A DNA stretch of 64,000 nucleotides, taken from an uncultured bacterium (GTDB taxonomy: Bacteria; Hydrothermota; Hydrothermia; LBFQ01). The translations under genes were made by a program, and so were the position numbers. A model generated the notes under the pieces. The model saw only the letters and a list, made by a program, of their open reading frames with translations. It was not told the origin of the DNA and made no database searches. Positions 2,391 to 54,796 of the stretch are shown here, one piece after another (the stretch's first letter is position 1; every line of letters starts with the position of its first letter). The stretch lies in NCBI GenBank assembly GCA_964473735.1, contig CAYYQD010000002.1, positions 4,966 to 68,965 of the forward strand, in the 5' to 3' direction.

Positions 2391-2432
2391 CAGTATCACT
2401 TTGGGTATGAAACTAAGGGAAGTGATACCGGT
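2391..2432 (-). repeat. Copy 1 of the ~40-bp intergenic inverted-repeat element (reverse orientation); divergent region between the transglutaminase-like gene and the helicase gene
   Basis: The + strand reads cagtatcactttgggtatgaaactaagggaagtgataccgg. Its reverse complement matches the consensus cGGTAYCACTTc-N6-TTTYRTACCCAAAGTGRTACC. Confidence 0.7.
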
Positions 2433-2578
2433 TAGCGTTCTACAATGACAACATCCCTGTACGATTACCATCTTACAGCGGCATTTCTGGCATCACAAAA
2501 CCGCGAAAACCCACCCGTACAGCGGTATGAACATAAAGCGCGAAGTAATACCGCACCCGCACCGTTTAGAATCCACGG

Positions 2579-4591
2579 ATGCATTTTAAATCTTACAGGG
2601 AGTACTACGACTTCTTCCGTCGCCTCGTACTGCTTGAGAGAGAGGCCGAGATAGAGTTCCACAGACAGGAGATAAGGAGACTTCCGGGATGGAAGAGGGA
2701 GAGGTTAGGCAGGGCGATCCTGAATCTGCGGGGGAAGCTGGTGGGCAGAGGGTTGGGGGGTACCTATCTGGTGAAGTACGTCCGTCAGGGTGGCCTGCCC
2801 GACACCGAGATAAAGGTGGGGGATCTGGTCATAGTTAGCCGGGGAAAGCCGAGGGGAAACGAGGTGCAGGGTACGGTGGTAGAGAAGACCCGATTCTCCA
2901 TAACCGTAGCCTACGACAGACATCCACCCGACTACGCTTTGGGCAAGGGTGTCCGTATGGACCTCTTCGCCAACGACGTAACCTTCCAGAGGATGTTAGA
3001 CGCCCTCAAGTCCCTGAAGGATAATCCGGACCTACTGAGTCTGCTTCTGGGTAAGGCGAAGCCCAGCGTATCCGAGGAGGACGTACCCCTTAAGAATGCG
3101 GCCCTGAACGGAAGTCAGAGGGCGGCCGTCAGGAAGGCCGTAGGCTCCCGGCCCGTCTTCCTCATCCACGGGCCACCGGGAACGGGTAAGACCACCACCG
3201 TAGTTGAGGCCATATACCAGTACGTCCGGAAGGGGTTGAAGGTCCTCGCCACGGCGGACTCCAACGTGGCCACGGATAACATGGTTGAGAGGCTGGCCAG
3301 CTACGGCGTGAAGGTCGTGAGGGTGGGGAACCCCTCCCGCATAACTAAAGCGGTCGTGGAGCACTCCCTTCCCCACCTTCTCCAGTACGACGAGGACTAC
3401 AGGAGGGCCCTGAAGATATACGAAGAGGTGGATCGGCTCAGGGAGGAGCAGAAGGGATATCTGGCCCCCAGCCCGAGGTGGAGGAGGGGCCTATCCGACG
3501 AGCAGATATTACGGTTCGCGGAGACGGGGACACCCGTCCGTGGGGTCCCGCCCAACGCCATAAGACGGATGGCCGCATGGATAAAGGTCCAGCAGCGCAT
3601 AAACGCCCTTATGGACAGGGCCAAGAGGTACGAGGCCATAGCCATAGAGAGGGTCCTTAGAAACGCGGAGGTCGTATGCTCTACCAACTCCTCCGCCGGA
3701 GGGGAGGTACTCGCCCACTTCACCTTTGACGTGGTGTTTATAGACGAGGCCACGCAATCCACCGAGCCCTCCTGCCTGATCCCCATGGTCAAGGGGAGGA
3801 TGTGGGTGATGGCGGGGGACCACAAACAGCTTCCCCCTACCATACTCAGCGAGGAGGCGGCTAAGCACCTACAGAGGACCCTGTTTGAGAGGCTCCTTCG
3901 GGTCTACGGGGACGGTATAAAGGAGATGCTCCGGGTACAGTACAGGATGAACAGGGTGATAATGGAGTTCCCGAGTAAGACCTTTTACGATGGGAAGCTG
4001 GTGGCCCACGAGAGCGTCGCCCACCGTACGCTGGCAGACTTAGGCATAACCCCGGAGAGGGTCCGAAACCTTCCCCACCCCCTGTCCGTGGTTCTGGATC
4101 CGGACAGACCCGTCGTATTCGCCGACACCCTGGGTAGGTCTCCGGAGAGGCAGAGGAAGGGCTCCACCTCCTACTACAACGAAGGGGAGGCCCGGTTCGT
4201 CCTCGCCGTGGTCAAGGCCCTCCTGAGTCTGGGTATAGGACCAACGGATGTGGGCGTGATCTCCCCGTACGACGACCAGATAGACCTCCTTAAGAGGGCC
4301 TTTCGGGAGGGAGGGATACCGGAGGATGTTGAGGTGAAGACGGTGGATGGGTTTCAGGGGAGGGAGAAGGAGGTGATAGTGGTGTCCTTCGTCAGGTCCA
4401 ACGGTAGGGGGGAGATAGGTTTCCTGAACGACGTCCGTCGCCTCAACGTAGCCATAACCCGTCCCAGAAGGAAGCTCATAACCGTGGGAGACTCCACCAC
4501 CTTGAGAGTACATCCGCTCTACCGCGATTTCCTTGAGTACGTTAAAAGGGTTGGAGGATACGTGCAACTTCTACCTTCAGCGGGGATTTAG
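2579..4591 (+). CDS. Superfamily-1 Upf1/IGHMBP2-like (DNA2/NAM7 family) helicase with an N-terminal beta-rich extension
   Basis: Walker A is GPPGTGKT, the DEAT-like box is FIDEATQ, and a C-terminal AAA_12-like region reads VDGFQGREKEVIVVSFVRSN...LNVAITRPRRKL. The protein is 670 aa. Confidence 0.75.
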   Translation: MHFKSYREYYDFFRRLVLLEREAEIEFHRQEIRRLPGWKRERLGRAILNLRGKLVGRGLGGTYLVKYVRQGGLPDTEIKVGDLVIVSRGKPRGNEVQGTVVEKTRFSITVAYDRHPPDYALGKGVRMDLFANDVTFQRMLDALKSLKDNPDLLSLLLGKAKPSVSEEDVPLKNAALNGSQRAAVRKAVGSRPVFLIHGPPGTGKTTTVVEAIYQYVRKGLKVLATADSNVATDNMVERLASYGVKVVRVGNPSRITKAVVEHSLPHLLQYDEDYRRALKIYEEVDRLREEQKGYLAPSPRWRRGLSDEQILRFAETGTPVRGVPPNAIRRMAAWIKVQQRINALMDRAKRYEAIAIERVLRNAEVVCSTNSSAGGEVLAHFTFDVVFIDEATQSTEPSCLIPMVKGRMWVMAGDHKQLPPTILSEEAAKHLQRTLFERLLRVYGDGIKEMLRVQYRMNRVIMEFPSKTFYDGKLVAHESVAHRTLADLGITPERVRNLPHPLSVVLDPDRPVVFADTLGRSPERQRKGSTSYYNEGEARFVLAVVKALLSLGIGPTDVGVISPYDDQIDLLKRAFREGGIPEDVEVKTVDGFQGREKEVIVVSFVRSNGRGEIGFLNDVRRLNVAITRPRRKLITVGDSTTLRVHPLYRDFLEYVKRVGGYVQLLPSAGI

Positions 4592-4801
4592 CGTCGCGAG
4601 GCCCCCCTTCCCTCAAAGGAGGTTCTGCTATGCCGTTATAAACGGGCTGAAGGAGGTATGGAGAAATTGCCCGGGGGACCGGAGAAGGGATACGTAGAAC
4701 CACAGGGTATGGACGCAAGGGAGCGGAAGGGGATCCGGGCCCCGAACAACCCATCCCCCTTAACGGGACAAACCCGCTGCCGCGGTGGTTAAACTGGAGG
4801 G

Positions 4802-5839: not shown

Positions 5840-5850
5840 ACTTCCCCCTC

Positions 5851-6934: not shown

Positions 6935-8912
<1,978 letters not shown>

Positions 8913-8918
8913 TAGCCT

Positions 8919-12337: not shown

Positions 12338-12637
12338 ATGACGGCGAAAGAGATAAAGGATAAGGCGATACTGGTTCTTATTCTGGACCTGCTTATCCCG
12401 GGTCTGGGGCACATCATAGCCTATCAGGAGATAGCGGAGGCCCTGAAGAGGACCGGTAAGGACCCCTCGGCCGACCCCGAAGCCGTAAAGAGGAACGGAA
12501 TAATCCAGCTCGTCCTGTACCTCGCCGGCTTTATCACCTGCGGTCTAACCTCCATAGTGGCGTGGATATGGGCCTTCATCATAGACACGCTCATGAAGTA
12601 CTACGGCGCGATGACGTCCGTACCGGAGGAGGGTTAG
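12338..12637 (+). CDS. Small hypothetical membrane protein
   Basis: The protein is 99 aa with two hydrophobic helices. Support is weak. Confidence 0.3.
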   Translation: MTAKEIKDKAILVLILDLLIPGLGHIIAYQEIAEALKRTGKDPSADPEAVKRNGIIQLVLYLAGFITCGLTSIVAWIWAFIIDTLMKYYGAMTSVPEEG

Positions 12638-12921
12638 AGGTCCGGAGGGTACAGGTAGGGTAGCCTCCACCCCATTAGGTGCATAACGAACCTCAGGAGG
12701 GTCATAAGGGTGTAGAGGGCGATCAGGAGGGTAAGGGCTCTGATCCGGGTCCTGTGGCTCATAAACGGGAAGGCGAATATGACCAACAGAGAGAGCAACG
12801 TCAAAGGGTTGTAGTACAGACTCTTAAGGACGTTCCCGTGGATTAGGGCGATGAGGGACCTGTAAGTCCCACACCCACCGTCGGGTATACTCGTCAGGCT
12901 CCTGTACGGACAGGCGTACAA
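12634..12921 (-). CDS. Small hypothetical membrane protein with an N-terminal Cys pair
   Basis: The protein is 95 aa with a CPY...C motif and hydrophobic segments. It lies tail-to-tail with the previous ORF with a 4-nt overlap, and support is weak. Confidence 0.3.
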   Translation of the reverse strand: MYACPYRSLTSIPDGGCGTYRSLIALIHGNVLKSLYYNPLTLLSLLVIFAFPFMSHRTRIRALTLLIALYTLMTLLRFVMHLMGWRLPYLYPPDL

Positions 12922-12996: not shown

Positions 12997-13036
12997 CGGT
13001 ACTACTTTGGGTACAAAAGTTAAGGAAGTGGTACCG
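12997..13036 (-). repeat. Copy 2 of the intergenic inverted-repeat element (reverse orientation), in a divergent intergenic region
   Basis: The + strand reads cggtactactttgggtacaaaagttaaggaagtggtaccg, which is the reverse complement of the element consensus. Confidence 0.7.
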
Positions 13037-13260: not shown

Positions 13261-15327
13261 ATGGAGAAGCTCTTTTACCCCGACAGCATCATCGTCTTCG
13301 GAGCATCGCCGCGCCCCGGAAACCTGGGTCGTGTGATAGTAGGCAACCTCCTCCGCTTCGGTTATCCCGGACGAATCTACATGTACTCCCCCCGTGGGGG
13401 TGTCCTCTACGGCCAGCAGATCATAAGCGACCTCAACGAGGTACCGCCGGGCATAGACCTGGCCGTCATAATAACCCCAGCCAACACCGTCCCCCACATC
13501 CTTGAAGTCTGCGGAAAGAAGGGGATAAAGCGTGTGGTGATAGAGTCAGCCGGTTTCGGCGAGTTCGCCGAGGAGAGGAGGGTGTTGGAGAGGCAGATGT
13601 TGGACATAGCCGAGGAGTACGGTATAAGGTTCGTCGGACCCAACGGCCTCGGCATAATCAACCTTGAGAAGGGGGTGGTCCTTCCCTTTACGGCCATGTA
13701 CCCGGAGACCACCAAGGCCGGTAACATCTCCATCCTCTCCCAGAGTGGAGGCATAGGTCTATCCTACATAGACCTGCTCTCCTTTGAGAATCTGGGGGTG
13801 AATAAGTTCGTGAGCCTCGGGAACAAGCTCCAGATGGACGAGAACGACTTCCTTGAGTACCTCAACGCCGACCCCTCCACCCGCATCGTCGGGATGTACC
13901 TTGAGGGTATAAAGGACGGGAGACGGTTCATGGAGGTGGGTCGGCACGTGACTAAACCCGTCATAATCCATAAGTCCAACACGGGTAAGTCCAGTCAGGG
14001 GATAGCCAAGTCCCATACGGCCTCCCTTGCCGTGGACGACCGCATAGTGGATGCGGCCACGAAGCAGTTAGGCTTCGTCCGGGTACATACCCTCCACGAC
14101 ATGATAAACGCCGCCAAGGCCTTCTCCCTCCCCCCCATGCGGGGGAACCGTCTGGCGATAATCTCCCGCTCAGGGGGGCACGCGGTCGTGGCGGCAGACG
14201 CCGTGGACGAGTACGGTTTTGAGCTGGTTCCCTTCTCCGAGCGTTTCCTCAAGGAGGTGAGAAAGCACTTCCGCGCCAACGTCATAAACCCCACCAACCC
14301 CCTTGACTTGGGCGATATGTTTGACTTCAACCTGTACGTAGCCGTGATAGAGCAGGCCTTAAAGGAGACCCAGCTGGACGGACTCGTATTCCTCCACGTC
14401 TATTCTCCCAATCAGGCAGACATATCCCGTCCTCTCATCCCCAAGATAAAGGCCCTGTCGGAGAAGTACGATAAGCCCATAGCCGTGGTGATCTTCAGTA
14501 CGCAGGAGGAGGTGGCCACCGTGAAGAAGATGTACGACTTCCCCCTCTTTGACGAACCGGGGGACGCCCTTAAGGCCTTAGCCGTGAGCAGGGACTACTA
14601 CATATACAAGCCCCGCTTCATGGACACCCACAACCCCGCCGTGATAGACACTTCCAGGGTGGCCGAGATATTAAAAGGGAAGGAGCAGCTGGACTTGGTG
14701 GATGCCCTGAGGCTGGTGGAGGCCATAGGTATAAAGGTGGCCCCGTACCGCTTCGTGCCGCTGGGTGAAGACCCCCTGAAGTACGCCTCCGACCTCACCT
14801 ATCCGCTGGCCGTGAAGATCGTAGCGGACGAGGGCATACACAAGACGGACGTGGGAGGGGTGGCCCTAAACGTTAAGGACGAGGAGATGCTCCTCAAACG
14901 GGTCAGGGAGATGGAGGAGAGTGCCAGAGCCTACGGCATAGACTTCAAGGGATTCCTCCTTCAGGAGATGGTCAGGAGCAGGAGGGAGCTCATAGTGGGG
15001 GCCAAGCTGGATCGCCTCTTCGGGCACGTGGTTCTCTTCGGACTGGGTGGCATAATGGTTGAGGTCTTCAAGGACGTGTCCTTAGGTGTGGTGCCCTTCG
15101 GGGAACCGTGGGCCGAGCACATGATAAAGAGCATAAAGGGGTACAACGTTCTTCAGGCCTTCAGGGACGAGCCCAGGGCGGATATACCCGCCATAAAAGA
15201 CGCCATACTGAAGGTGGCCAAGCTGGTTCAGAAGTTCCCACAGATAAAGGAGCTGGACATAAACCCCCTATTCGCCCTGCCGGAGGGCAAGGGGGTGGTG
15301 GCCGTGGATGCGAGAGTGGTGATTTAG
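13261..15327 (+). CDS. Acetyl-CoA synthetase (ADP-forming), fused alpha-beta; NDP-forming acyl-CoA synthetase family
   Basis: The N-terminal CoA-binding/succinyl-CoA-synthetase-like region reads IIVFGASPRPGNLG...AVIITPA. The C-terminal ATP-grasp part is present and the length is 688 aa. Confidence 0.8.
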   Translation: MEKLFYPDSIIVFGASPRPGNLGRVIVGNLLRFGYPGRIYMYSPRGGVLYGQQIISDLNEVPPGIDLAVIITPANTVPHILEVCGKKGIKRVVIESAGFGEFAEERRVLERQMLDIAEEYGIRFVGPNGLGIINLEKGVVLPFTAMYPETTKAGNISILSQSGGIGLSYIDLLSFENLGVNKFVSLGNKLQMDENDFLEYLNADPSTRIVGMYLEGIKDGRRFMEVGRHVTKPVIIHKSNTGKSSQGIAKSHTASLAVDDRIVDAATKQLGFVRVHTLHDMINAAKAFSLPPMRGNRLAIISRSGGHAVVAADAVDEYGFELVPFSERFLKEVRKHFRANVINPTNPLDLGDMFDFNLYVAVIEQALKETQLDGLVFLHVYSPNQADISRPLIPKIKALSEKYDKPIAVVIFSTQEEVATVKKMYDFPLFDEPGDALKALAVSRDYYIYKPRFMDTHNPAVIDTSRVAEILKGKEQLDLVDALRLVEAIGIKVAPYRFVPLGEDPLKYASDLTYPLAVKIVADEGIHKTDVGGVALNVKDEEMLLKRVREMEESARAYGIDFKGFLLQEMVRSRRELIVGAKLDRLFGHVVLFGLGGIMVEVFKDVSLGVVPFGEPWAEHMIKSIKGYNVLQAFRDEPRADIPAIKDAILKVAKLVQKFPQIKELDINPLFALPEGKGVVAVDARVVI

Positions 15328-17518: not shown

Positions 17519-17591
17519 GGGTCCGTAGCTCAACAGGCAGAGCACCCGGCTGTTAACCGGGGGGTTGCAGGTTCGAGTCCTGCCGGGCCCG
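17519..17591 (+). tRNA. tRNA-Asn (anticodon GTT)
   Basis: The fold is a hand-drawn cloverleaf. The acceptor GGGTCCG/CGGGCCC has one G-U pair, and the D arm is GCTC-AACAGGCA-GAGC. The anticodon arm CCCGG-CTGTTAA-CCGGG carries U33 and A37. The T arm is GCAGG-TTCGAGT-CCTGC. No CCA is encoded. Confidence 0.8.
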
Positions 17592-17597
17592 CTTATT

Positions 17598-23619: not shown

Positions 23620-23688
23620 ACTCTCTATGTGAATGGTCTCCCTCCTTCTGGAGGGTATTCTACGGTCGTGTTTAGAATCTGCCGTCCC

Positions 23689-24362: not shown

Positions 24363-24401
24363 CGGTACCACTTCTCCCGATTTTGTACCCAAAGTGATAC
24401 C
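24363..24401 (+). repeat. Copy 3 of the intergenic inverted-repeat element (forward orientation), in a convergent intergenic region
   Basis: The sequence ccggtaccacttctcccgattttgtacccaaagtgatacc is nearly identical to copy 5, including the flanking gaatcc. Confidence 0.75.
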
Positions 24402-24570: not shown

Positions 24571-24600
24571 AAAAAAAGGGGGGCCCAAGGCCCCCTTTCG
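24571..24600. terminator. Bidirectional rho-independent terminator
   Basis: The sequence aaaaaaa-GGGGGGCC-caa-GGCCCCC-tttcg lies between convergent genes. It has an A-tract upstream and a T-tract downstream. Confidence 0.7.
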
Positions 24601-36625: not shown

Positions 36626-37678
36626 ATGAAAAGGTTTAAGTACCTCTGGCCCGTACTCGTACTGCTGCTGGTCGCGCTGTACTTCCTCTGGCGGGGCGTG
36701 GGCGGAAGCAAGCCGCGGGAGGCGGAGGTCCGTAAGGAGGCCCCGAAGGCGGGGAATCGCCCCGTTGAGATATTCTTCACCCGCTCGGACGACGACCCCG
36801 AAAGGGCGCTGGTCTCCTTCATAAACTCGGCCAACAGGTACGTGCATGTGGCCATATTTGAGCTGGAGCTGGAGAGGGTGGTGAATGCCCTGATAGATGC
36901 TAAGCACAGGGGGGTAGATGTGAAGGTCGTCATGGACGACAGGATGAAGCGTAAGTGGGCGGCTAAGAAGTTGAAGGCCGCAGGCATCCCTATAGTCTTT
37001 GATAACCGAAAACCCTACATGCACAACAAGTTCGTAGTCGTTGACGGTAAGGCCGTGTGGTCCGGTTCTATGAACTTCAAGGAGTCCTCCGTCTATCGCA
37101 ACGATAACAACGCCTTCATAATCTTCTCCCCGCAGGTGGCGGAGAACTACGAGAGGGAGTTTCAGGAGATGTTCGCCCAGCACCTCTTCGGACCGGACTC
37201 CCCTCGCAACACTCACTGCTGCTTTAAAGTGGCGGACGTTTATCTGGAGAACTACTTCGCCCCGGAGGACAGTGTAGCGCGGAGGATAGTTGATATACTG
37301 CACAACTCCCGAAAGAGCATAAGGTTCGCGGCCTTCTCCTTTACGGACGACGACATCGGAAAGGCCATGGTGGAGGCGAAGCGCAGGGGGGTAGAAGTGG
37401 TCGGTGTGGTGGAAGCCCGCGGTGTCAGGAACAAGGGGTCGGAGTACAGGAGACTGAAGCGGGCGGGAATTCCCGTATTTAAGGACGGCAACCCCTACAT
37501 CCTCCACGACAAGTACATAATCGTGGATGACTCAATAGTGATAACAGGATCCTACAACTTCTCGCGCTCCGCCAGAAAGAGGAACGACGAGAACGTCGTC
37601 ATATTCTTCAAGAGGTGGATAGCCGGGGAGTACCTGAGGGACTTCGGTCGCATACTCAAGGAGGCTAAGGGAGAGTAA
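36626..37678 (+). CDS. Phospholipase D-like protein with two HKD motifs and an N-terminal TM anchor
   Basis: The first HKD motif is HNKFVVVDGKAVWSGSMNF. The second is HDKYIIVDDSIVITGSYNF. The N-terminus is a hydrophobic helix. Confidence 0.7.
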   Translation: MKRFKYLWPVLVLLLVALYFLWRGVGGSKPREAEVRKEAPKAGNRPVEIFFTRSDDDPERALVSFINSANRYVHVAIFELELERVVNALIDAKHRGVDVKVVMDDRMKRKWAAKKLKAAGIPIVFDNRKPYMHNKFVVVDGKAVWSGSMNFKESSVYRNDNNAFIIFSPQVAENYEREFQEMFAQHLFGPDSPRNTHCCFKVADVYLENYFAPEDSVARRIVDILHNSRKSIRFAAFSFTDDDIGKAMVEAKRRGVEVVGVVEARGVRNKGSEYRRLKRAGIPVFKDGNPYILHDKYIIVDDSIVITGSYNFSRSARKRNDENVVIFFKRWIAGEYLRDFGRILKEAKGE

Positions 37679-37707: not shown

Positions 37708-37749
37708 GCGGTACCACTTTTGCAGGTTTTATACCCAAAGTGATACCGT
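37708..37749 (+). repeat. Copy 4 of the intergenic inverted-repeat element (forward orientation), between the convergent PLD and rsmB/F-like genes
   Basis: The sequence is gcggtaccacttttgcaggttttatacccaaagtgataccg. Confidence 0.7.
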
Positions 37750-37775: not shown

Positions 37776-38687
37776 CTAAACCTTCTCAAACATGGCTATG
37801 AAGAAACCTTCGGTATCCGTTCTGTGAGGGTAAAAGCGCTTCGTTCCGGGTACGGCCCCGTCTACCTCCCCTATTCCCACCTCAGGCACGGGTACCAGCG
37901 TGGCCCCGCTCTCCTTCAGGAACCTCTCAACTACGTTCTCGTTCTCCTCGTAGGTTAAGGTGCAGGTGGAATATACCAACCTTCCCCCCGGCTTCAGAGT
38001 ATCCCAGCCGGCCATAAGCAACCGGTACTGTACGCGACTGTAGGCCTTTACCTCCTTAGGGGACCACCAGAGGGCCACCTCGGGGTTCTTGTGCAGAGTC
38101 CCCACGGAGGAGCAGGGGGCATCCACCAGAACGTAATCGTAGTACTCCCTGTAAAATCTGGCCAACCTCTCCCCCCTGTATATGCTAACTACGACGTTGA
38201 GGCACCCCATCCTCTCCACGTTGTTGACCAGAGCCCTTACCCTGTCCATAGAGGAGTCGTTGGCGAAAACCATACCCGTGTTCCCCATAAGGGCCGAGAG
38301 TAAGGTGGTCTTGGAACCGGGGGCGGCAGCGATGTCCAGCACGAAGGAATGCGGCCGGGGGTTCAGGAGGTGGGCGGGAAGCATGGAGGCCAAATCCTGA
38401 ACGTAGTAGTATCCTAAGAAGTGCTCTAAGGTTTTGCCCATCTCCGTAGGGTAGTGGAGGACCCGGAAAGCGTAGGGTAGGACGGTCCCCTCAAGGACGA
38501 ACCCCCTATCCTCCAGCCTCCTTCTCAGGGTTTCCGGCTCTATCTTGAGGGTGTTGGCCCTGATGTACGGGCGGTAGGAGGGGGAGGTTATGTACCGGAC
38601 GTACTCTTCGTACTCCTCCCCCAGTATCTCCCGAATCGCGGACCACAGGCTCCTGTTCTTCCTCAGGTACTCCTCCCTTATGGGCAT
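37776..38687 (-). CDS. RsmB/RsmF (NOL1/NOP2/Sun) family rRNA cytosine-C5 methyltransferase
   Basis: The SAM motif is LDIAAAPGSKT. The catalytic motifs DAPCS and STCT are present and the length is 303 aa. Confidence 0.75.
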   Translation of the reverse strand: MPIREEYLRKNRSLWSAIREILGEEYEEYVRYITSPSYRPYIRANTLKIEPETLRRRLEDRGFVLEGTVLPYAFRVLHYPTEMGKTLEHFLGYYYVQDLASMLPAHLLNPRPHSFVLDIAAAPGSKTTLLSALMGNTGMVFANDSSMDRVRALVNNVERMGCLNVVVSIYRGERLARFYREYYDYVLVDAPCSSVGTLHKNPEVALWWSPKEVKAYSRVQYRLLMAGWDTLKPGGRLVYSTCTLTYEENENVVERFLKESGATLVPVPEVGIGEVDGAVPGTKRFYPHRTDTEGFFIAMFEKV

Positions 38688-43467: not shown

Positions 43468-43902
43468 ATGTTGCGTTTTCTATTGTCCGTTTTAGTGCTG
43501 GGGGTACTCCTTCCCGGATGTAGGGTGGAGGATACGAACGGAGGGGGAGGGAACGGCAACCTCGTGAGTGTGGACCTCTTCCACGGCTACTACGACGTTG
43601 GACCCGGATACTACTTCCGTCTGAAGTTCTCCGCCCGCTCCGGAGATACCCTGCACTTTGAGGCCCGGGTAAGGAACGGGGACGGGGACATAAGCTACGC
43701 CTTCTGGACGGACAGCGTAAATTTCGTCAGGTGGCTGAACGACGACTCCACGGCCGTCCTCCACGGCTACGTTGAGGGGGTGAGCACCGTTTCCTACTCC
43801 CCCGCCCTTGACTCCAGCGTCTATTACGTTGTGCTCGGCAACTCCTCCGCCATTACCACCAAGCGCTTCTGGATAAGGGCCTACCTGAGGGGGTTGAGAT
43901 GA
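43468..43902 (+). CDS. Hypothetical lipoprotein
   Basis: Lipobox LLPGCR; 144 aa. Confidence 0.4.
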   Translation: MLRFLLSVLVLGVLLPGCRVEDTNGGGGNGNLVSVDLFHGYYDVGPGYYFRLKFSARSGDTLHFEARVRNGDGDISYAFWTDSVNFVRWLNDDSTAVLHGYVEGVSTVSYSPALDSSVYYVVLGNSSAITTKRFWIRAYLRGLR

Positions 43903-45356
43903 TAACGCTCCTATCCTTCTTCAGGCCGGAGATACCCGCAGAGGTTCCCCGATGGAGGGTCGGAGAGGTCTTACGGGAGATAAAGAGAGAGAGTCGGCCC
44001 TCTCCGTACGGATGGTACCTTAAAGTGAAGGACTCCCCGTCCTACTGGAAGGCCTGGGACGGAAAGAGGATAGTCGTCAGGCTTAAGGACGGTCATACGC
44101 CCGAGGAGGTGTTAGGTGGCCTGCCCTACAGAAAGGCTAAGAATACGCCATCCTACGTCATAACCCTCCCCGATGGCAAACGCGACCTATCCTACGTTAA
44201 AGCCCTCCTGAACTCTTTGAACTCACACCCCGGTGTCCTCTTCGCCGAACCGATGCTCCTGTACAGAACCGACTACTGGCCGAACGACCCCATGCTGGGA
44301 ACCTACCTGTGGGGGATGTGGGCCATATACGCCGACCGGGCCTGGGACATAACCCGTGGGAACTCCGCGGTTAAGGTGTGCGTCGTGGATGAGGGTATGG
44401 ATTACAACCACGAGGACATCAGCGGGAACTACGCCGGAGGGTACGACTTCGTTGAACTGGACTCGGACCCCTACCCCGCCGACGCCTCGGAGATGCACGG
44501 CACCCACGTGGCCGGTACCATAGCCGCCGTTATGAACAACGGCAAGGGGGTAGTGGGTGTGGCACAGGTGGGAATACTCTCCTGTAGGGCCATGGCGGGT
44601 GGGTCCGGAACGAGCGAGGACATAGCCTCCTGCATAAGGTGGTGTGTCTCACAGGGGGCCCGGGTTATAAACATGAGCCTGGGGGCCTCCGCCCCCGCCT
44701 CCGAGATACAGGACGCCGTCATATACGCTACGGACAGTACCGACAGGGGTACAGTTGTGGTGGCCGCCTCCGGAAACGACGGCATAAACGGGGTGCTTTA
44801 CCCCGCTGCCTACCCGCAGGTAATAGCGGTCGGGGCCATAGATACCTTAGGTCAGAGGGCCTACTTCAGCAACTACGGTCCGGAGCTGGAGCTGGTGGCT
44901 CCCGGGAACCTGATAGCCTCCACCGTACCCTTCAACAACGCCTACGCCTACGCCGACGGTACCTCCATGGCCACCCCCCACGTCTCCGGGGTCGCGGCCC
45001 TGATACTCTCCCGGAACCCCAACCTCTCCGCCGACACCGTGAGGGCCATACTGGACGCCACGGCCATAGACATGGGGGAGTACGGTAAGGATTACTTCTA
45101 CGGGTACGGCCTCGTGAACGCCTACCTGGCCCTCCTCGCCACCCCTACACCCACCGCCGGTCCTACCCTTACCGGGGCCGTTGATGTGGAGGTCTCCGGA
45201 CGCACGGTCAGGGCCAGCACGGATCGCGGCTCCGTATCCCTGTACTCATCGGGCGGCAGGCTTCTGGCCCGTGGTAGGTCCATCGTCTTGGAAGTCGGCT
45301 CCGGAGTGTATTTCCTGACCGCTAACGGGAAGACCTACAGCCTAATCGTGAGGTGA
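43899..45356 (+). CDS. Subtilisin-like serine peptidase (S8) with a T9SS-type C-terminal domain
   Basis: The catalytic triad motifs are VVDEGMD, HGTHVAGT and GTSMATPHVSG. The C-terminal ~70 aa are paralogous to the CTD of the 24617-25603 protein (VSLYSSGGRLLARGR...GVYFLTANGKTYSLIVR). Confidence 0.8.
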   Translation: MITLLSFFRPEIPAEVPRWRVGEVLREIKRESRPSPYGWYLKVKDSPSYWKAWDGKRIVVRLKDGHTPEEVLGGLPYRKAKNTPSYVITLPDGKRDLSYVKALLNSLNSHPGVLFAEPMLLYRTDYWPNDPMLGTYLWGMWAIYADRAWDITRGNSAVKVCVVDEGMDYNHEDISGNYAGGYDFVELDSDPYPADASEMHGTHVAGTIAAVMNNGKGVVGVAQVGILSCRAMAGGSGTSEDIASCIRWCVSQGARVINMSLGASAPASEIQDAVIYATDSTDRGTVVVAASGNDGINGVLYPAAYPQVIAVGAIDTLGQRAYFSNYGPELELVAPGNLIASTVPFNNAYAYADGTSMATPHVSGVAALILSRNPNLSADTVRAILDATAIDMGEYGKDYFYGYGLVNAYLALLATPTPTAGPTLTGAVDVEVSGRTVRASTDRGSVSLYSSGGRLLARGRSIVLEVGSGVYFLTANGKTYSLIVR

Positions 45357-45359
45357 CCT

Positions 45360-45866
45360 ATGCTCCACCTTCTGTACGCGGGGATCTTTGACGACATAAA
45401 GCGCATTTACGACACCCTCCGTACCTTCCGGGCCGACGTAGTGCAGGAGGTGAAGTTCGGAAACGTGGTCGTCTATAGGGGGAGCGTTTATCTTAAGAAG
45501 CCGGACCTGTTCCGATGGGAGCTGAACGATCCGGAGGAGTACATCATCGTGGCCCGGGGAGACAGCTCGTGGGTGAAGTATCAGGGGGAGATATACTCCC
45601 AGCCCGTCCCCTACGACCTCAAGTCCCTCCTCATGGGGGACTACTCCGCCCTGCACGTTGAGGAGAGGAGGAGGGGAAGGAGGATCATCCTGAAGATAAC
45701 GAGCGACAGGGTAGGGTACGACTCCCTGCTGGTCTATCTCCGTAGGGACCTGCTTCCGGAGAGGATAGAGGCCTTCAGCGATGAGGACTACGTGAAGATA
45801 ACCCTGAAGAACGTCGCCGTCAACGTTGAGGTACCGGACAGCCTGTTCAGGTTGAGCGTTCCCTAA
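45360..45866 (+). CDS. LolA-like domain protein (no signal peptide detected)
   Basis: The LolA-like block is FRADVVQEVKFGNVVVYRGSVYLKKPDLFRWELNDPEEYIIVARGDSSWVKY. There is no in-frame N-terminal extension, because the S8 stop sits 3 nt upstream. Confidence 0.45.
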   Translation: MLHLLYAGIFDDIKRIYDTLRTFRADVVQEVKFGNVVVYRGSVYLKKPDLFRWELNDPEEYIIVARGDSSWVKYQGEIYSQPVPYDLKSLLMGDYSALHVEERRRGRRIILKITSDRVGYDSLLVYLRRDLLPERIEAFSDEDYVKITLKNVAVNVEVPDSLFRLSVP

Positions 45867-45891
45867 CTTTCCCCCTTAAACTCCCCTCTCC

Positions 45892-46752
45892 ATGAACAGA
45901 TTCACAGTGGTGGTGGTGGCCATAGTATCGCTGGCCGCCGGAGTATTCGTAGGTTCCCTCGGGCTCATGTACCTGACCCGGGGTAAAGGCTCAAAGGAGG
46001 AGGTCGCGCGGACGACCGGTAAGACCAAGATAGACACCCTTGAGGTTATCGGGGACGTAGTGATAGCGAAGGAGGACCTGAACGCGGCCTCCAAGATCCC
46101 CGGACTTACCCCGGAGCAGGACCTGAAGAAGGCCCTTGAGAAGATAGCCCTATTCTACAACGCTGCCAAGGAGAAGGGGATAACCTCTGACCCTCAGGCC
46201 AAACGCATGGCCTACTGGGCGGACAAGAGCGTGTACGCCGACCTGTTTTATCAGAAGTACGTCGTTCCCCTCATAAACGTGGATACGAACGCCGTGAACG
46301 ACTACATAAACGCCCACAAGGACGAGTTCTCCAAGGAGATAGCCATGCTCATGGTGGTCTATAAGGACCCAGCTCTGACGGATACCCTCCGGAAGCTACT
46401 CAAGGACGGCAGCTACGCCGCTAACCTCATGCTGGAGGAGTTCGCCAAGAAGGGGAAGATAGGGGTACAACCCTCCCCTTACCAGAACTTGGGGCTCGGG
46501 AGGTTCGCCATGAACGAGGAGGAGTTCAAGACCCTGAAGGAAGCCAGGGTGGGAGATGTCGTGGGCCCGTTTCAGGTGGCTCCGGGTACGTACGCCCTCG
46601 CCAAGGTCGTGGATATACGTCGTACCAACCTGAAGAAGATAGATCCCAACGTGAAGGGCGTGGTGTATCAGTACCTGATTGATCAGCGCAAGAGGGAGGT
46701 TGAGGACTCCCTGATTAAGGTGTTTGAAAGGAAGTACGCGGGAGGTAAGTGA
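45892..46752 (+). CDS. SurA N-terminal-domain-like periplasmic chaperone (membrane-anchored)
   Basis: It has an N-terminal TM helix and a helical chaperone-like domain. It is adjacent to and co-oriented with the SurA-like PPIase. Confidence 0.45.
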   Translation: MNRFTVVVVAIVSLAAGVFVGSLGLMYLTRGKGSKEEVARTTGKTKIDTLEVIGDVVIAKEDLNAASKIPGLTPEQDLKKALEKIALFYNAAKEKGITSDPQAKRMAYWADKSVYADLFYQKYVVPLINVDTNAVNDYINAHKDEFSKEIAMLMVVYKDPALTDTLRKLLKDGSYAANLMLEEFAKKGKIGVQPSPYQNLGLGRFAMNEEEFKTLKEARVGDVVGPFQVAPGTYALAKVVDIRRTNLKKIDPNVKGVVYQYLIDQRKREVEDSLIKVFERKYAGGK

Positions 46753-47981
46753 TGCTTTTACTGTTGGCCGTGCAGCTGGATACCCTGGATAGGGTGGCGG
46801 CGGTGGTGGATGACAGGGCCATCTGGATGTCCGACGTGGACGAGAGGGCCTTACTTTACGCTTCCACCTACGGGATACCCCCGGACCAGCTTCCATCCCT
46901 CCGCAGGGAGGTACTCCAGCAGATGGTTAATACCGAGCTCCTGTACCTGAAGATAAGGGAGGACACCTTAATCCACGTGAGCGAGGACGAGGTGGAGAGG
47001 GCAATAGACATGCAGATACAACAGATAAAGGGGAACCTAAGCGATGAGGAGTTTGAGAGGAAGCTCAAGGAGGCCGGTTTTACCCTTGAGGCCTACCGAC
47101 GGTACCTGAGGGACGACATCCGCAAGACCCTCTACATTCAGAAGTACGTAGAGATGAGGATAAAACCCCGGGTGAAGGTAAGCGACGAGGAGGTGGATAA
47201 GGCCTACGAAAAGCTGGCCGACTCCCTGGCCACGCCCCCGGAGTTCAAACTCGCCGTCATAACCTTGATGGTAAAACCTTCGGCCTCCGCAGAGCAGGAG
47301 TACTACAACAGGGCAAAGAACATCTACAGACAGCTCAAGAGGGGAGCCGGATGGGAGGAGATGGTTCAGAAGTACTCCGACGACAGGGAGAGCGCTCGCA
47401 TAGGAGGGGACTTAGGCATAGTACCCAAGAACGCCCTGCCACCCAACTTCGTTAAGGAGATAGAGAAGACCCCCGAGGGTGGCTATACCAAACCTTTGAG
47501 GGGGCCTCAGGGGTACCACATCTTCTACGTTAAGGGGAAGAGGGAGGACGCCTTCCTATTGGCACACATCTTAGTTAAGGTAAGCCCCTCCGAGGCGGAC
47601 GTCAAACGTGTGATGAGAAAGGCTAAGGGTATAGTGAAGAAGATCAAAGCCGGGTACTCCTTCGCGAAGCTGGCTCGGAGGTACTCCGACGACCCAGTGT
47701 CCAGACAGAACGGTGGGGAGATCGGATGGGTGAGCGCCCGCGCCCTACCACCGGACATAGTTGAGAAGCTCAAGGGGGCCAAACCCGGCGAGGTGGTGGG
47801 TCCCATACCCACGCCCGATGGCACCATGATAAACATCTTCAAGGTGTTAGACGTGCATGAGGGCCAGAGACCCACGAGAGCACAGGTTAAACAGATACTC
47901 CTGCAGCGCAAGATAGAGGAGGAGCTGAACAAGCTGGTGGAAGAGGCTAAAAAGGAGTACTACGTGAAGGTCTATATCTGA
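46749..47981 (+). CDS. surA: SurA-like peptidyl-prolyl cis-trans isomerase with two parvulin domains
   Basis: Two PpiC-type blocks are present (ARIGGDLGIVPKNALPPNF and SRQNGGEIGWVSARALPPDIV). The start overlaps the upstream gene by ATGA. Confidence 0.65.
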   Translation: MMLLLLAVQLDTLDRVAAVVDDRAIWMSDVDERALLYASTYGIPPDQLPSLRREVLQQMVNTELLYLKIREDTLIHVSEDEVERAIDMQIQQIKGNLSDEEFERKLKEAGFTLEAYRRYLRDDIRKTLYIQKYVEMRIKPRVKVSDEEVDKAYEKLADSLATPPEFKLAVITLMVKPSASAEQEYYNRAKNIYRQLKRGAGWEEMVQKYSDDRESARIGGDLGIVPKNALPPNFVKEIEKTPEGGYTKPLRGPQGYHIFYVKGKREDAFLLAHILVKVSPSEADVKRVMRKAKGIVKKIKAGYSFAKLARRYSDDPVSRQNGGEIGWVSARALPPDIVEKLKGAKPGEVVGPIPTPDGTMINIFKVLDVHEGQRPTRAQVKQILLQRKIEEELNKLVEEAKKEYYVKVYI

Positions 47982-47996
47982 TTGACTTCCGGGTGT

Positions 47997-48030: not shown

Positions 48031-48042
48031 GTAGCACCGTCC

Positions 48043-50162: not shown

Positions 50163-50187
50163 TCTGCCCTCCTGTTTCTAAATCCTA

Positions 50188-51822: not shown

Positions 51823-51823
51823 C

Positions 51824-52405: not shown

Positions 52406-52491
52406 ACTCGTTCCTCCTTGGTCTCATATTATACACTGGTAAGGCACCCCGTTTCCGGACGCATGCAGTACGCTCCTCCGTAAAATACGGA

Positions 52492-54687
52492 GTGATCTTC
52501 CTGCTCTTAGGGAGCATAACGGTTGAGGGGCAGGTGGTGGATAGCCTTGAGGGGGGAATACCCTACGCCGTGGTGCGCGTCCCGAAGCTGAAAAAGGGTA
52601 CCTACGCCGACGATAGGGGTTTCTTCAAGCTTGTGTTGCCGGACGGAAGGTGGAAGGTAATCGTGTCAGCCGTAGGGAGGGAGCCGGATACCTTTTCAGT
52701 CTATGGGAGGGACACTACCCTCTTCGTAAAGGTAGTCCTGCGTACCTCACCGATAAAGGCTAAGGAGATCGTCATAACCGCCAAGAGGGAGGAGTTCCGG
52801 AAGGGGACAGTAGAGCCCTTTAAGTTCAAGGCGGAGGTGATAAGGGAGAGGCCCAACTTCTTGACGTCGGACGTCCTTAGAGCCATACAGGACGTACCCG
52901 GCGTGGTGATGGCGGCCGACTTCTCCTCCAAGTTCTCCGTGAGGGGCGGGGGGCCTCAGGAGAACATCGTCCTATTTGACGACGTACCGGTGTTCAACCC
53001 CTACCACATGGCCGGTCTGTTCTCCGTGTTTATAAGCGATGCCCTATCGGGTTTTACCTTTTACCGCTCCAACTTCCCGGCCCGGTACGGTGGTGTCCTA
53101 TCCTCCATCTTAGACGTTCAGGTGGCGGAGCCGGATAGCGCGTACGGTAACCTCTCCGTTAGTCTGTTGGCCACGTCCCTGTTCCAGACTTTTAAAAGGG
53201 GTAAGTTCGGCGGTCTCGTTGCCCTCCGTCGCTCCTACTTTGATATAACGGCCGGATGGATGGGGTACGATTTTCCCTACCACTTCTACGACGGTATAGC
53301 GAAGTTTTATTACGACGTCAGGCCGTCCTGGAGGCTCTCCCTGTCCTTGCTTCAGGGGGACGACGTCCTTGACCTGTACTTCCGGACGGCCCACCTCTAC
53401 GCCTCGTGGGGAAACACCGTACTGTCCCTCAGGAGTAGGGCCATCCTGGGGGGAAAATGGGTCTCTCTGAGCACTCTGGGTCTCACCCTCTTCAGGGATA
53501 GGCTATCCTTTGGCTTTAAGGATCAGACCATCGTCTCATTAACCGCCCCCATGAATCTGGGTACCTTCCGGACCTCCTTAAGCAGCGTGGATGAGAGCAG
53601 GGAGATAAGGTTAGGACTCTCCGTAGAGCCCGGATGGGGCGGGATAAATCAGGACTTCTTCGGCATGAAGTACGAGGATAAGGGCAACACCGTCCTCTCC
53701 TCCATCTACGGGGAGTACCTGCTGAAGAGGGGTATATACAACCTCTCGGTAGGCGGACGCCTCAACCTCTTCTATACGTGGTTCCCGGAGCCCATGAGCA
53801 AGTACAACGTTGCCTATCTCAACCCGGAGCCGCGTATAACCTTCCGCTACTTCCTCACACCCGACGTCGCCATCAAGGGTGGCTGGGGAGTATTTCACCA
53901 GTACCACATCGGTTTGAGTATGGGAGGGGGACAGCTGGGTGAGGTCCTATCCTCGTTCTATTACTGGACGTCCGTATTTAGAGGCTGGCAGCCCATGAGG
54001 TCCTTCCACTACTCCCTCGGGCTGACGGGTATAACCGCGTGGGGGGACTGGGAGGTTGAGGCCTTCTACAAGGACTACCCTTACGTCCTGCTGGAGAACC
54101 CTACTCCGGATATAAACGACATCTACGGTACCATCTTCCGGGAGGGGAAGGCGTGGGCCTACGGCTTTGACGGATACGTCCGGAAGGACGTCGGTAAGGT
54201 GCGCCTCCTCCTCTCCTACTCCTTCCTGATAGCCCGGATGAAGTTCGGAGATACCATCCATCCCTCCCCATGGGACAGGAGACACGCCGTGGTTTTCACC
54301 CTATCTCACCCCCTGCCTTGGGGTGCGGTAGGAGGGCTCCGCTTCACCTACCAGAGCGGTATGCCCTACACCGGGGTCATAGCCCGGTACGACGTATACT
54401 CCATGTACGACCCGGGCCTCGGGATGCCCATGAGGGTAGGGACGAGGGAGATATACAGCGTACCCTATACCCTCCGATACCCACCCTACCACCGTCTGGA
54501 CCTGTACGTGCGTAGAAACTTCAGTATAAAACGGTTCAGGGGGTACCTTTCCCTATCCGTAATAAACGTCTATAACCGGAGGAACGTGTGGTTCTACATG
54601 TACGACTACTCCAAAGATCCTCCGATAAGGACGGCATTCTACCAGCTGCCTATCTTTCCCTCTATAGAGGTGGGTGTGAGGTGGTGA
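52492..54687 (+). CDS. TonB-dependent receptor (SusC/RagA-like, with N-terminal CarboxypepD_reg domain)
   Basis: The N-terminal beta-sandwich is GQVVDSLEGGIPYAVVRVPK...DRGFFKL. The plug region is FDDVPVFNPYH, and the C-terminal barrel ends ...IEVGVRW. Confidence 0.65.
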   Translation: MIFLLLGSITVEGQVVDSLEGGIPYAVVRVPKLKKGTYADDRGFFKLVLPDGRWKVIVSAVGREPDTFSVYGRDTTLFVKVVLRTSPIKAKEIVITAKREEFRKGTVEPFKFKAEVIRERPNFLTSDVLRAIQDVPGVVMAADFSSKFSVRGGGPQENIVLFDDVPVFNPYHMAGLFSVFISDALSGFTFYRSNFPARYGGVLSSILDVQVAEPDSAYGNLSVSLLATSLFQTFKRGKFGGLVALRRSYFDITAGWMGYDFPYHFYDGIAKFYYDVRPSWRLSLSLLQGDDVLDLYFRTAHLYASWGNTVLSLRSRAILGGKWVSLSTLGLTLFRDRLSFGFKDQTIVSLTAPMNLGTFRTSLSSVDESREIRLGLSVEPGWGGINQDFFGMKYEDKGNTVLSSIYGEYLLKRGIYNLSVGGRLNLFYTWFPEPMSKYNVAYLNPEPRITFRYFLTPDVAIKGGWGVFHQYHIGLSMGGGQLGEVLSSFYYWTSVFRGWQPMRSFHYSLGLTGITAWGDWEVEAFYKDYPYVLLENPTPDINDIYGTIFREGKAWAYGFDGYVRKDVGKVRLLLSYSFLIARMKFGDTIHPSPWDRRHAVVFTLSHPLPWGAVGGLRFTYQSGMPYTGVIARYDVYSMYDPGLGMPMRVGTREIYSVPYTLRYPPYHRLDLYVRRNFSIKRFRGYLSLSVINVYNRRNVWFYMYDYSKDPPIRTAFYQLPIFPSIEVGVRW

Positions 54688-54756
54688 ATGCTCGCGGTGT
54701 CGTTAGAGGGCGTGGGAAAATCATCCCGTTGGTGGAAGTACGGGGTAAGCCGAATC

Positions 54757-54796
54757 CGGTACCGCTTTTTGCGATTTTGTACCCAAAGTGGTACCT
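54757..54796 (+). repeat. Copy 5 of the intergenic inverted-repeat element (forward orientation), ~40 nt upstream of the next + gene
   Basis: The sequence ccggtaccgctttttgcgattttgtacccaaagtggtacc has 10-bp arms GGTACCGCTT/AAGTGGTACC that pair fully, with one G-U pair. Confidence 0.75.

What the first reader, a model, noticed from the sequence alone, without database searches (positions are those of the whole stretch)
2391..54796. Family of about 40-bp intergenic inverted-repeat elements (five strong copies) with covariation in the stem
The copies are at 2391-2432 and 12997-13036 (reverse orientation) and at 24363-24401, 37708-37749 and 54757-54796 (forward). The consensus is cGGTAYCACTTc-N6-TTTYRTACCCAAAGTGRTACC. 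It contains 10-nt arms GGTACCACTT / AAGTGGTACC able to form a hairpin, and an inner GTACC-N6-GGTAC palindrome. Arm position 5/6 covaries: C-G in copies 2 and 5, T-A in copy 1, and a C.A mismatch in copies 3 and 4. Copy 5 also has a G-U in place of A-U. All copies are intergenic: two in divergent promoter regions, two in convergent 3' regions, and one 40 nt upstream of a lipoprotein gene. Copies 3 and 5 also share the flanking gaatcc and cgattttg. This is either a regulon operator for an unknown dimeric regulator, a structured RNA motif, or a miniature REP-like repeat.
Basis: seen in the sequence. Interest (0 to 1): 0.65.

Follow-up and report, generated by a model that had tools for sequence, protein, structure and literature searches.

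The report
Species-specific 38-bp intergenic palindromic repeat family
The five look-alike 38-base elements are real. They belong to a short palindromic repeat family that has been copied into the spaces between genes of one uncultured hydrothermal bacterium, much like the REP elements of E. coli, and the proposed RNA-stem covariation disappears once more copies are compared.

Summary
All five copies exist at the stated places (0 expected by chance). A metagenome scan and a profile search raised the family to 31 distinct copies, all from the same species.

What the copies show:
- The core is sharply bounded: (C)GGTAYCACTT-N7-TTTYRTACCCARAGTGRTACC.
- Every copy is intergenic, in convergent, tandem and divergent spacers.
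- Copies lie in either orientation relative to neighbouring genes.
- The neighbours are unrelated housekeeping genes.

The covariation claim fails:
- Stem positions 5 and 34 vary independently (UA 11, CG 6, UG 3, C·A mismatch 10).
- The covariation score is no better than shuffles (168/500).
- RNAalifold finds no compensatory pair.

Evidence that copies arise by duplication of source copies:
- The N7 spacer and 10-25 nt of left flank fall into discrete subfamilies shared by unlinked loci.

Evidence that the family is lineage-specific:
- About 128 kb from related species holds no copy.
- An orthologous TonB-receptor/LEA_2 spacer in a relative at 86% nucleotide identity lacks the element.
- No GTDB representative genome or viral contig shows the family. 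The GTDB scan gave only single, chance-level half-pattern matches.

There is no target-site duplication, no Rfam match and no terminator-type tail.

Verdict: a new, lineage-specific REP-like dispersed repeat, not a regulon operator or structured RNA. How it is mobilised is not shown; no RAYT or transposase was found in the sequence sampled.

The parts
2392..2429 (-). Copy 1 (GGTATCACTTCCCTTAGTTTCATACCCAAAGTGATACT). It sits in the divergent spacer between a transglutaminase-like gene (842-2236, -) and an SF1 helicase gene (2579-4591, +). Spacer subfamily CCCTTAG.
   Evidence: the spacer is shared with L035 and L042 copies; the left flank GAACGCTAAC is shared with an L030 copy
12998..13035 (-). 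Copy 2 (GGTACCACTTCCTTAACTTTTGTACCCAAAGTAGTACC). It sits in the divergent spacer between a DUF2752 gene (12634-12921, -) and the ADP-forming acetyl-CoA synthetase gene (13261-15327, +). It has a C·A mismatch at stem pair 6/33.
24364..24401 (+). Copy 3 (GGTACCACTTCTCCCGATTTTGTACCCAAAGTGATACC). It lies 24 nt after the stop of a UbiE-type methyltransferase gene (23629-24339, +), in a convergent spacer. The convergent gene has its own canonical terminator at 24579-24595.
   Evidence: the spacer CTCCCGA is shared with the L039 copy; the left flank AGCMGAATCC is shared with copy 5
37710..37747 (+). Copy 4 (GGTACCACTTTTGCAGGTTTTATACCCAAAGTGATACC). It fills 38 of the 97 nt between the convergent PLD-like gene (36626-37678, +) and RsmB/F methyltransferase gene (37776-38687, -).
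   Evidence: the same copy is present in other strains of the species (L023, L052-L054)
54758..54795 (+). Copy 5 (GGTACCGCTTTTTGCGATTTTGTACCCAAAGTGGTACC). It lies 70 nt after a TonB-dependent receptor gene (52492-54687, +) and 41 nt before a LEA_2 lipoprotein gene (54837-55322, +). It is absent from the orthologous spacer of relatives.

Best explanation
The elements are members of a lineage-specific family of short interspersed palindromic repeats. They are REP-like: a non-coding, non-autonomous DNA element that has multiplied within one genome.

Anatomy:
- The unit is a sharply bounded core of 38-39 bp.
- It has 10-nt inverted arms (GGTAYCACTT / AAGTGRTACC) around an 18-nt interior.
- The 5' 7 nt of the interior are free to vary. 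The 3' 11 nt (TTTYRTACCCA) are nearly fixed.

Shown here:
- New copies arise by duplication of existing source copies. Discrete spacer and flank subfamilies occur at unlinked loci.
- Copies settle only where they do no harm, namely in intergenic DNA, in either orientation.

Inferred:
- The strongly conserved positions most likely mark what a trans-acting enzyme must recognise.

Inferred, not shown:
- That enzyme is a single-strand-hairpin HUH/tyrosine transposase of the RAYT / IS200-IS605 type. This type inserts without target-site duplication.
- Any effect on neighbouring transcripts (3'-end hairpin stabilisation, insulation) would be secondary.
For: 1. The family is real. There are 5 copies in the window against 0 expected, and 31 distinct copies after the metagenome scan and nhmmer search.
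2. The boundaries are sharp. Information content drops to background immediately outside the 38-39 bp core.
3. All copies are intergenic. Contexts are convergent, tandem and divergent, and orientation relative to flanking genes is mixed.
4. Neighbouring genes are unrelated housekeeping genes: DnaK, rplX, MetRS, GyrA, Icd, PRPP synthetase, PFOR and others.
5. Copies are related by descent. Identical 7-nt spacers recur at unlinked loci: CCCTTAG x3, TTGCCGA x3, CTCCCGA x2 and ATGCGGA x2, giving 8 identical pairs against about 0.03 expected for random 7-mers. In addition, 10-25 nt of left flank is shared within subfamilies.
6. Selection is not at the RNA level. There is no covariation. C·A and G·T departures in the stem are equally frequent, about 15 each, so neither strand is favoured.
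7. The family is lineage-specific.
   - About 128 kb from related species (67-88% identity) holds zero copies.
   - The orthologous TonB-receptor/LEA_2 spacer in a relative at 86% nucleotide identity is 62 nt shorter and lacks the element, while the adjacent -10 box is invariant.
   - The scan of 185,579 GTDB species genomes for the right half gave only 17 single matches. That is about the number I estimated for chance, and none has the left arm.
   - No viral contig matches.
8. There is no target-site duplication. This fits HUH-type or REP-type insertion and argues against a cut-and-paste MITE.
9. Both strands can form a hairpin: mean -10.6 and -13.4 kcal/mol, against -4.0 for shuffles.
Against: - No RAYT, IS200/IS605 or other transposase gene was found in the window or in about 75 kb of element-bearing contigs. 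A single-copy gene would probably be missed in so small a sample, so the mobilising enzyme is unproven.
- The canonical REP features are absent: there is no GTAG head and no inverted REPIN doublets. The five close pairs seen are all in direct orientation.
- The 18-nt loop with a fixed half is unlike classical REPs and would equally suit a protein-binding site.
- No unambiguous empty site could be reconstructed, because the orthologous spacer is too diverged.
- No decayed copies were seen in the window. This implies a recent spread, constraint on the sequence, or homogenisation.
- Copy number may be only tens per genome. Only 3 of the window's 5 copies were recovered among the 23 metagenome hits.
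Confidence: 0.68

Rival explanations
1. The elements are binding sites for an abundant host DNA-binding protein, such as a global regulator, a nucleoid or architectural protein, or a domesticated transposase. The protein would read three RTACC boxes: an inverted box at positions 1-5 and direct boxes at 22-26 and 34-38. The sites would be kept by selection for a host function such as insulating neighbouring transcription units.
For: - 18 of 38 columns are invariant. These include the 3' half of the 'loop' (TTTnnTACCCA), which a hairpin does not need.
- The variable positions tolerate only transitions.
- The GTAC cores are spaced about 12 and 20 bp apart.
- There are no decayed copies in the window.
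- The elements occupy 5 of about a dozen sizeable intergenic spacers.
- Copy number may be only tens per genome, which is compatible with a large regulon.
Against: - Spacer and flank subfamilies show that copies were duplicated, not independently evolved.
- Positions relative to starts and stops are inconsistent, and many copies lie between convergent genes.
- The neighbours are functionally unrelated.
- The element is absent from the orthologous LEA_2 promoter region and from about 128 kb of relatives. A conserved host function is therefore not shared even by species about 15% diverged.
- The ascertainment pattern itself forced many 'invariant' columns.
Confidence: 0.15
2. The element works at the RNA level. 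It would be a 3'-end hairpin that stabilises or terminates upstream transcripts, as some E. coli REPs do, or part of a small RNA or cis-regulatory leader.
For: - About 10 of 31 copies lie 24-80 nt after a stop codon.
- Predicted hairpins are well below shuffled energy on both strands.
- On the reverse strand the common C·A mismatch becomes G·U.
Against: - There are no compensatory changes, and the covariation score equals the shuffles.
- Orientation relative to the upstream gene is mixed. In tandem contexts 7 copies oppose the gene direction and 2 match it.
- Several copies lie in divergent promoter spacers.
- There is no U-tract, and the terminator scan does not call the elements. The organism uses canonical GC-hairpin + T7 terminators, one of which sits beside copy 3.
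- There is no Rfam match at gathering score or at E<=1.
Confidence: 0.08
3. The element is a minimal MITE: two terminal inverted repeats of an insertion sequence fused together and moved by a DDE transposase by cut-and-paste.
For: - The terminal inverted repeats are 10 nt long.
- The element is non-coding, intergenic and multi-copy.
Against: - There is no target-site duplication of 2-7 nt at any tested boundary offset.
- At 38 bp the element is below the usual MITE size.
- No parental IS with these ends was seen in any locus.
Confidence: 0.05

Closest known systems
REP (repetitive extragenic palindromic) sequences / REPINs mobilised by RAYT transposases (Enterobacteria, Pseudomonas; PMC3116915, PMC3337134)
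   Same: - A short (20-40 bp) imperfect palindrome.
- Strictly extragenic and multi-copy.
- Subfamilies within one genome.
- Restricted to a narrow lineage.
- No target-site duplication.
- Found in all kinds of intergenic spacer, often just after stop codons.
   Different: - No GTAG-type head.
- An unusually long 18-nt interior with a fixed 11-nt half.
- No inverted doublets (REPINs). The close pairs seen are all direct, 80-180 nt apart.
- No RAYT gene found in the sampled DNA.
- Probably tens rather than hundreds of copies.
- The host is an uncultured WOR-3-related hydrothermal bacterium rather than a proteobacterium.
Bacterial MITEs such as Neisseria Correia elements
   Same: - Non-autonomous.
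- Terminal inverted repeats.
- Intergenic, and can sit next to promoters or 3' ends.
   Different: - Correia-type MITEs are 100-150 bp, with about 26-bp inverted repeats and a TA duplication (from my own knowledge).
- Here the element is 38 bp with 10-nt arms and no duplication.
PATEs / IS200-IS605-derived hairpin elements
   Same: - Hairpin-forming.
- Inserted without duplication.
- Would be mobilised in trans by an HUH enzyme acting on single-stranded DNA.
   Different: - Those elements carry distinct left and right subterminal hairpins and a specific 4-5 nt target 5' of the left end.
- Here there is one hairpin, and only a single preferred base (C at -1 in 23 of 30 copies).
Palindromic operator regulon of a dimeric transcription factor
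   Same: - Inverted arms.
- High sequence conservation.
- Some copies lie in promoter regions.
   Different: - Copies lie between convergent genes.
- Spacers and flanks are shared by descent.
- The neighbouring genes are unrelated.
- The element is missing from an orthologous promoter in relatives.

Membership tests
REP / REPIN-RAYT system | Short (about 20-40 bp) imperfect palindrome | tested here: met
   38-bp core with a 10-bp stem, 94.7% of stem cells paired
REP / REPIN-RAYT system | Many copies, confined to extragenic DNA | tested here: met
   31 distinct copies, none inside a called gene; 5 copies in 64 kb
REP / REPIN-RAYT system | Conserved GTAG-like tetranucleotide at the 5' end of the palindrome | tested here: not met
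   The element begins (C)GGTAYC; no GTAG is present at either end
REP / REPIN-RAYT system | Copies typically arranged as inverted doublets (REPINs) | tested here: not met
   Most copies are singletons. The five close pairs (L022, L028, L030, L034, L042) are all in direct orientation, 80-180 nt apart
REP / REPIN-RAYT system | A single-copy RAYT (Y1/HUH transposase) gene flanked by the cognate REPs | not testable with these tools
   No complete genome of the species is reachable. No transposase domain was found in the window or in genes next to copies, but the sample is only about 140 kb.
MITE (DDE-transposase dependent) | Terminal inverted repeats | tested here: met
   GGTAYCACTT / AAGTGRTACC
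MITE (DDE-transposase dependent) | Target-site duplication flanking each copy | tested here: not met
   No duplication of 2-7 nt above chance at any of 9 boundary offsets in 30 copies
Structured cis-regulatory RNA / sRNA | Base pairs maintained by compensatory changes; consistent strand relative to transcription | tested here: not met
   Covariation equals the shuffles (168/500) and there are 0 compensatory pairs. Orientation is mixed. No Rfam hit.
Intrinsic terminator | GC-rich stem, 3-8 nt loop, U-tract | tested here: not met
   The loop is 18 nt with no T-run. The terminator scan does not call the elements but does call a canonical terminator nearby.
Transcription-factor operator regulon | Sites at a consistent position upstream of functionally related genes, conserved at orthologous promoters | tested here: not met
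   Contexts and distances are mixed, neighbours are unrelated, and the element is absent at the orthologous LEA_2 promoter.

The most novel reading that the evidence does not exclude
The element is not merely selfish. It would be the recognition array (three RTACC boxes plus a hairpin-forming pair of arms) of a lineage-specific, possibly domesticated, DNA-binding enzyme that this hydrothermal bacterium uses to mark or insulate boundaries between transcription units. The direct-oriented pairs of 'A-type' (CCCAAAGT) and 'G-type' (CCCAGAGT) copies would delimit small functional intergenic modules.
Probability: 0.1. Interest if true: 0.55.

Novelty: new member of a known kind. Interest (0 to 1): 0.27.

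Why it matters
- The finding documents a previously undescribed short dispersed repeat family in an uncultured, deep-branching (WOR-3-related) hydrothermal lineage. Such elements have hardly been catalogued in lineages of this kind.
- The family is a handy strain and species marker. It is also a likely cause of fragmented metagenome assemblies and of the many synteny breaks seen against relatives.
- Its atypical anatomy (long half-conserved loop, no GTAG head, direct pairs) hints at a mobilising enzyme other than the classical RAYT.
- For annotation, it warns against reading these sites as a regulon or riboswitch-like motif.

Tried and rejected
- **GTDB representative genomes.** I scanned them for the right half of the element. 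This gave 17 single matches, about the number I estimated for chance. None has the left arm, and several lie in what look like coding stretches (e.g. an FHTQSDTEV-type reading frame, not verified). The host species is evidently not among the representatives.
- **Viral contigs.** No match.
- **Rfam.** Nothing at the elements at gathering score or at E<=1.
- **Sigma-54 (GG-N10-GC) and Bacteroidota (TAnnTTTG) promoter readings, CRP/NtcA/DnaA-box resemblances.** I considered these from the sequence. I rejected them because the spacing or key bases do not fit, or the feature is present in only some copies.
- **Restriction-site avoidance.** GGTACC occurs 55 times against 57 expected, so there is no restriction-modification story.
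- **Relation to CRISPR repeats.** The sister species has an array next to the PLD gene, but its 30-nt repeat is unrelated.
- **A second motif (GTAAAGAGGAGACCCACATC) between paired copies.** Only two good matches, so I dropped it.
- **A mini-ORF through the element (MAVSLLPILYPK*).** It depends on the TGA in GTGATACC and on an upstream ATG that only a few copies have, so I rejected it.
- **Empty-site reconstruction at copy 5.** The orthologous spacer lacks the element but is too diverged to define exact insertion boundaries.
- **An analogous repeat family in the sister species.** A 14-mer recurrence search over 43 kb found none.
- **The DUF5131 fragment next to a copy in L041.** The missing N-terminal half is not encoded on the other side of the element, so this is not a clean gene-disruption insertion.
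Full report
**Observation**

With the spacer set to 7 nt, the pattern GGTAYCRCTT-N7-TTTYRTACCCAAAGTRRTACC finds exactly these five sites with at most 1 mismatch. They are 2392-2429(-), 12998-13035(-), 24364-24401(+), 37710-37747(+) and 54758-54795(+). None of 100 dinucleotide-preserving shuffles gives a match. A whole-window repeat search shows this is the only genuine dispersed repeat family in the 64 kb. It also confirms that copies 3 and 5 share 10 nt of left flank (AGCMGAATCC).

My gene calls and Pfam scans confirm the stated contexts:
- Copy 1 lies between divergent transglutaminase-like and SF1-helicase genes.
- Copy 2 lies between divergent DUF2752 and ADP-forming acetyl-CoA synthetase genes.
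- Copies 3 and 4 lie between convergent genes (UbiE-type methyltransferase / hypothetical; PLD-like / RsmB-F).
- Copy 5 lies 70 nt after a TonB-dependent receptor gene and 41 nt before a LEA_2 protein with a lipobox-like N-terminus.

**More copies**

The GTDB-representative scan for the right half gave only 17 single matches. That is about the number I estimated for chance, and none has the left arm. The species is therefore not among the representatives, and no represented species shows the family.

The metagenome scan for the full element gave 26 loci. Twenty-two come from one JGI metagenome (Ga0256833 = 3300028398) and one from Ga0256841. Three of the Ga0256833 loci are the window's own copies 3, 4 and 5, and three other loci are one unrelated chance sequence.

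A profile built from 24 copies then picked up seven more diverged members in those contigs, six of them carrying the variant CCCAGAGT. It found no further copy, whole or decayed, in the window. In total there are 31 distinct copies with 30 distinct sequences.

Contigs carrying identical window proteins are 99.3-99.9% identical to the window. All these copies therefore come from strains of one species.

**Anatomy**

Aligning copies with 60-nt flanks shows that information content falls to background immediately outside the 38-bp core. The exception is a C at position -1 in 23 of 30 copies.
- Eighteen columns are invariant.
- The 7-nt spacer (positions 11-17) is the main variable part.
- Positions 5, 21, 22, 29, 33 and 34 show transitions.
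- The arms GGTAYCACTT / AAGTGRTACC can pair. The predicted hairpin energy is -10.6 kcal/mol on the forward strand and -13.4 on the reverse strand, against -4.0 for shuffles.

**Covariation**

This is the part of the finding that fails.
- On the 10-bp stem, 94.7% of cells pair, but the covariation score is reached by 168 of 500 shuffles.
- The only pair that varies on both sides (5/34) reads UA 11, CG 6, UG 3 and non-pairing C·A 10. That is what independent variation of the two columns predicts.
- RNAalifold drops pairs 5/34 and 6/33, finds no compensatory pair, and gives a consensus energy of -2.75 kcal/mol.
- G·T-type and C·A-type departures are about equally common, so neither strand is favoured as an RNA.

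**Context and orientation**

All 31 copies are intergenic. They occur in all three kinds of spacer:
- convergent (copies 3 and 4, L039);
- tandem (copy 5, L022, L025, L029, L032, L042);
- divergent (copies 1 and 2, L030).

About ten copies lie 24-80 nt after a stop codon. Their orientation relative to that gene is mixed. In tandem contexts 7 copies oppose the gene direction and 2 match it.

The neighbours are unrelated housekeeping genes: DnaK, ribosomal L24, RibF, MetRS, CoxB-like, Icd, GyrA, UbiA, PRPP synthetase, PFOR-beta and a class II tRNA synthetase, among others. No transposase domain was found.

The terminator scan does not call the elements. It does call a textbook GC-hairpin + T7 terminator (24579-24595, - strand), which lies between copy 3 and the convergent gene. 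Rfam has no match, even at E<=1.

**Copies are related by descent**

Identical 7-nt spacers recur at unlinked loci: CCCTTAG x3, TTGCCGA x3, CTCCCGA x2 and ATGCGGA x2. That is 8 identical pairs where random 7-mers would give about 0.03.

Subfamilies also share 10-25 nt of left flank:
- copies 3 and 5 share AGCMGAATCC;
- copy 1 and L030 share GAACGCTAAC;
- L036, L040 and L041 share GTCTTAGGA(A)GAT.

Independent operator sites would not share non-contacted spacers and flanks. Duplicated elements would.

No target-site duplication of 2-7 nt is present at any boundary offset.

Five intergenic regions hold two copies. All five pairs are in direct orientation, 80-180 nt apart, and each pairs a CCCAGAGT with a CCCAAAGT variant. 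The DNA between the two copies is unrelated from pair to pair.

**Lineage specificity**

Homologues of the flanking ACS, PLD and LEA_2 proteins identify a handful of related MAGs at 67-88% identity, followed by a gap to about 47-55%. The hits at about 55% are labelled candidate division WOR-3. The samples appear to be hydrothermal, which I infer from record names such as REYS20 and JOHN19.

About 128 kb of contigs from these relatives contains no copy at nhmmer E<=1, or E<=10 for L061-L065. These contigs are L047, L049, L051, L055, L058, L061, L063 and L064. Several lie at about 79-89% nucleotide identity to the window. The window's own density would predict about 10 copies. A more cautious genome-wide estimate of about 1 per 40 kb would predict about 3.

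The sister species also shows no analogous repeat family in 43 kb.

At the one locus where synteny is kept on both sides (TonB receptor / LEA_2; L064 and L065, about 86% nucleotide identity), the spacer is 87 nt instead of 149 nt and lacks the element. The adjacent CTCTTAGAATA..GTATG segment is invariant. The spacer is too diverged to define an exact empty site.

**Interpretation**

The evidence fits a REP-like, non-autonomous dispersed repeat that has multiplied within one species and is tolerated only between genes. The conserved positions plausibly mark what a trans-acting enzyme recognises.

The hairpin potential and the absence of target duplication point to a single-strand-specific HUH/RAYT or IS200-IS605-type enzyme. 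This step is inference. No such gene was found in the roughly 140 kb of this species that could be examined.

The family fails two classical REP criteria (GTAG head, inverted REPIN doublets; PMC3116915, PMC3337134). I therefore describe it as REP-like rather than as a member of the RAYT-REP system.

The main rival is a binding array for a host protein reading three RTACC boxes. It is kept at about 15%, because the half-conserved loop and the lack of decayed copies suit it. The subfamily structure, the heterogeneous contexts and the absence from relatives argue against it. RNA-level function and a DDE-type MITE are less likely still.

**Verdict**

This is a real, previously uncatalogued but conceptually ordinary repeat family. 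The eye-catching covariation came from having only five copies. Interest is modest.

Noticed in passing
L055 11056-12713 and 14016-21047 (sister species GCA_027050205.1, contig JALUCS010000083.1): A CRISPR array of at least 25 repeats (GTTTCAATCCCTTATAGGTAGGCTGCAAAC, period about 67) lies directly after the PLD-like gene. It is followed by cas2-cas1-cas4-cas3-cas5d-cas7-cas8c (type I-C-like). In the window the same PLD gene is followed by element copy 4 and rsmB/F instead.
   Followed up: partly
window 54819-54839; L062 1388-1408; L064 754-774: An invariant CTCTTAGAATA..GTATG lies upstream of the LEA_2 gene in three species. The -10-like TAGAAT sits only about 6 nt before the ATG, which suggests a leaderless mRNA. 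TTAGAA(T)-like boxes recur in many intergenic flanks of this organism.
   Followed up: partly
window 13261-15327 and 36626-37678 versus L047, L055, L058: The ACS and PLD genes have different neighbours on both sides in relatives at 79-89% nucleotide identity. Only a 4.4-kb block (window 43570-47969) is collinear with L047. Gene order in this lineage is therefore heavily rearranged. Whether the breakpoints coincide with repeat copies could not be tested.
   Followed up: partly
L022, L028, L030, L034, L042 (coordinates): Two copies of the element lie in the same intergenic region, always in the same orientation, 80-180 nt apart. Each pair has one CCCAGAGT variant and one CCCAAAGT variant, and in 4 of 5 pairs the G-variant is upstream. 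The DNA between the copies is not conserved from pair to pair.
   Followed up: partly
L041 517-978 (-) and element at 971-1008: A DUF5131 ORF covers only profile positions 125-243. It is truncated at its 5' end exactly where an element copy sits, and the missing half is not encoded upstream. This may be a rearrangement or deletion at a repeat copy.
   Followed up: partly
window 24579-24595 (- strand): A canonical intrinsic terminator (GGGGGCC-TTG-GGCCCCC followed by T7) serves gene 24617-25603. It shows that this organism uses ordinary Rho-independent terminators.
   Followed up: yes
L019 1504-1578: A tRNA gene followed by a T-run lies directly after rplX (L24), where rplE would normally follow. 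An element copy lies 230 nt further on, in an AT-rich non-coding stretch.
   Followed up: no
L047 7204-7449 and L055 6324-7025: In-frame tandem repeats (period about 66 nt) occur inside paralogous coiled-coil (apolipoprotein/Scy-like) genes of the sister species.
   Followed up: no
window 21014-21024 and 21038-21048: Two arm-like 11-mers (GGTACTACTTC, ACTACCACTTT) lie in direct orientation inside ORF 20938-21987. This is probably chance.
   Followed up: no
L052 11085-11122 (strain from ERZ27262668): In another strain (99.5% identical) copy 4 has a mutated left arm (TCGTACC instead of CGGTACC). This is an example of strain-level change inside the stem.
   Followed up: no
window 17519-17592: tRNA-Asn (GTT), the only RNA gene detected in the window.
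   Followed up: yes
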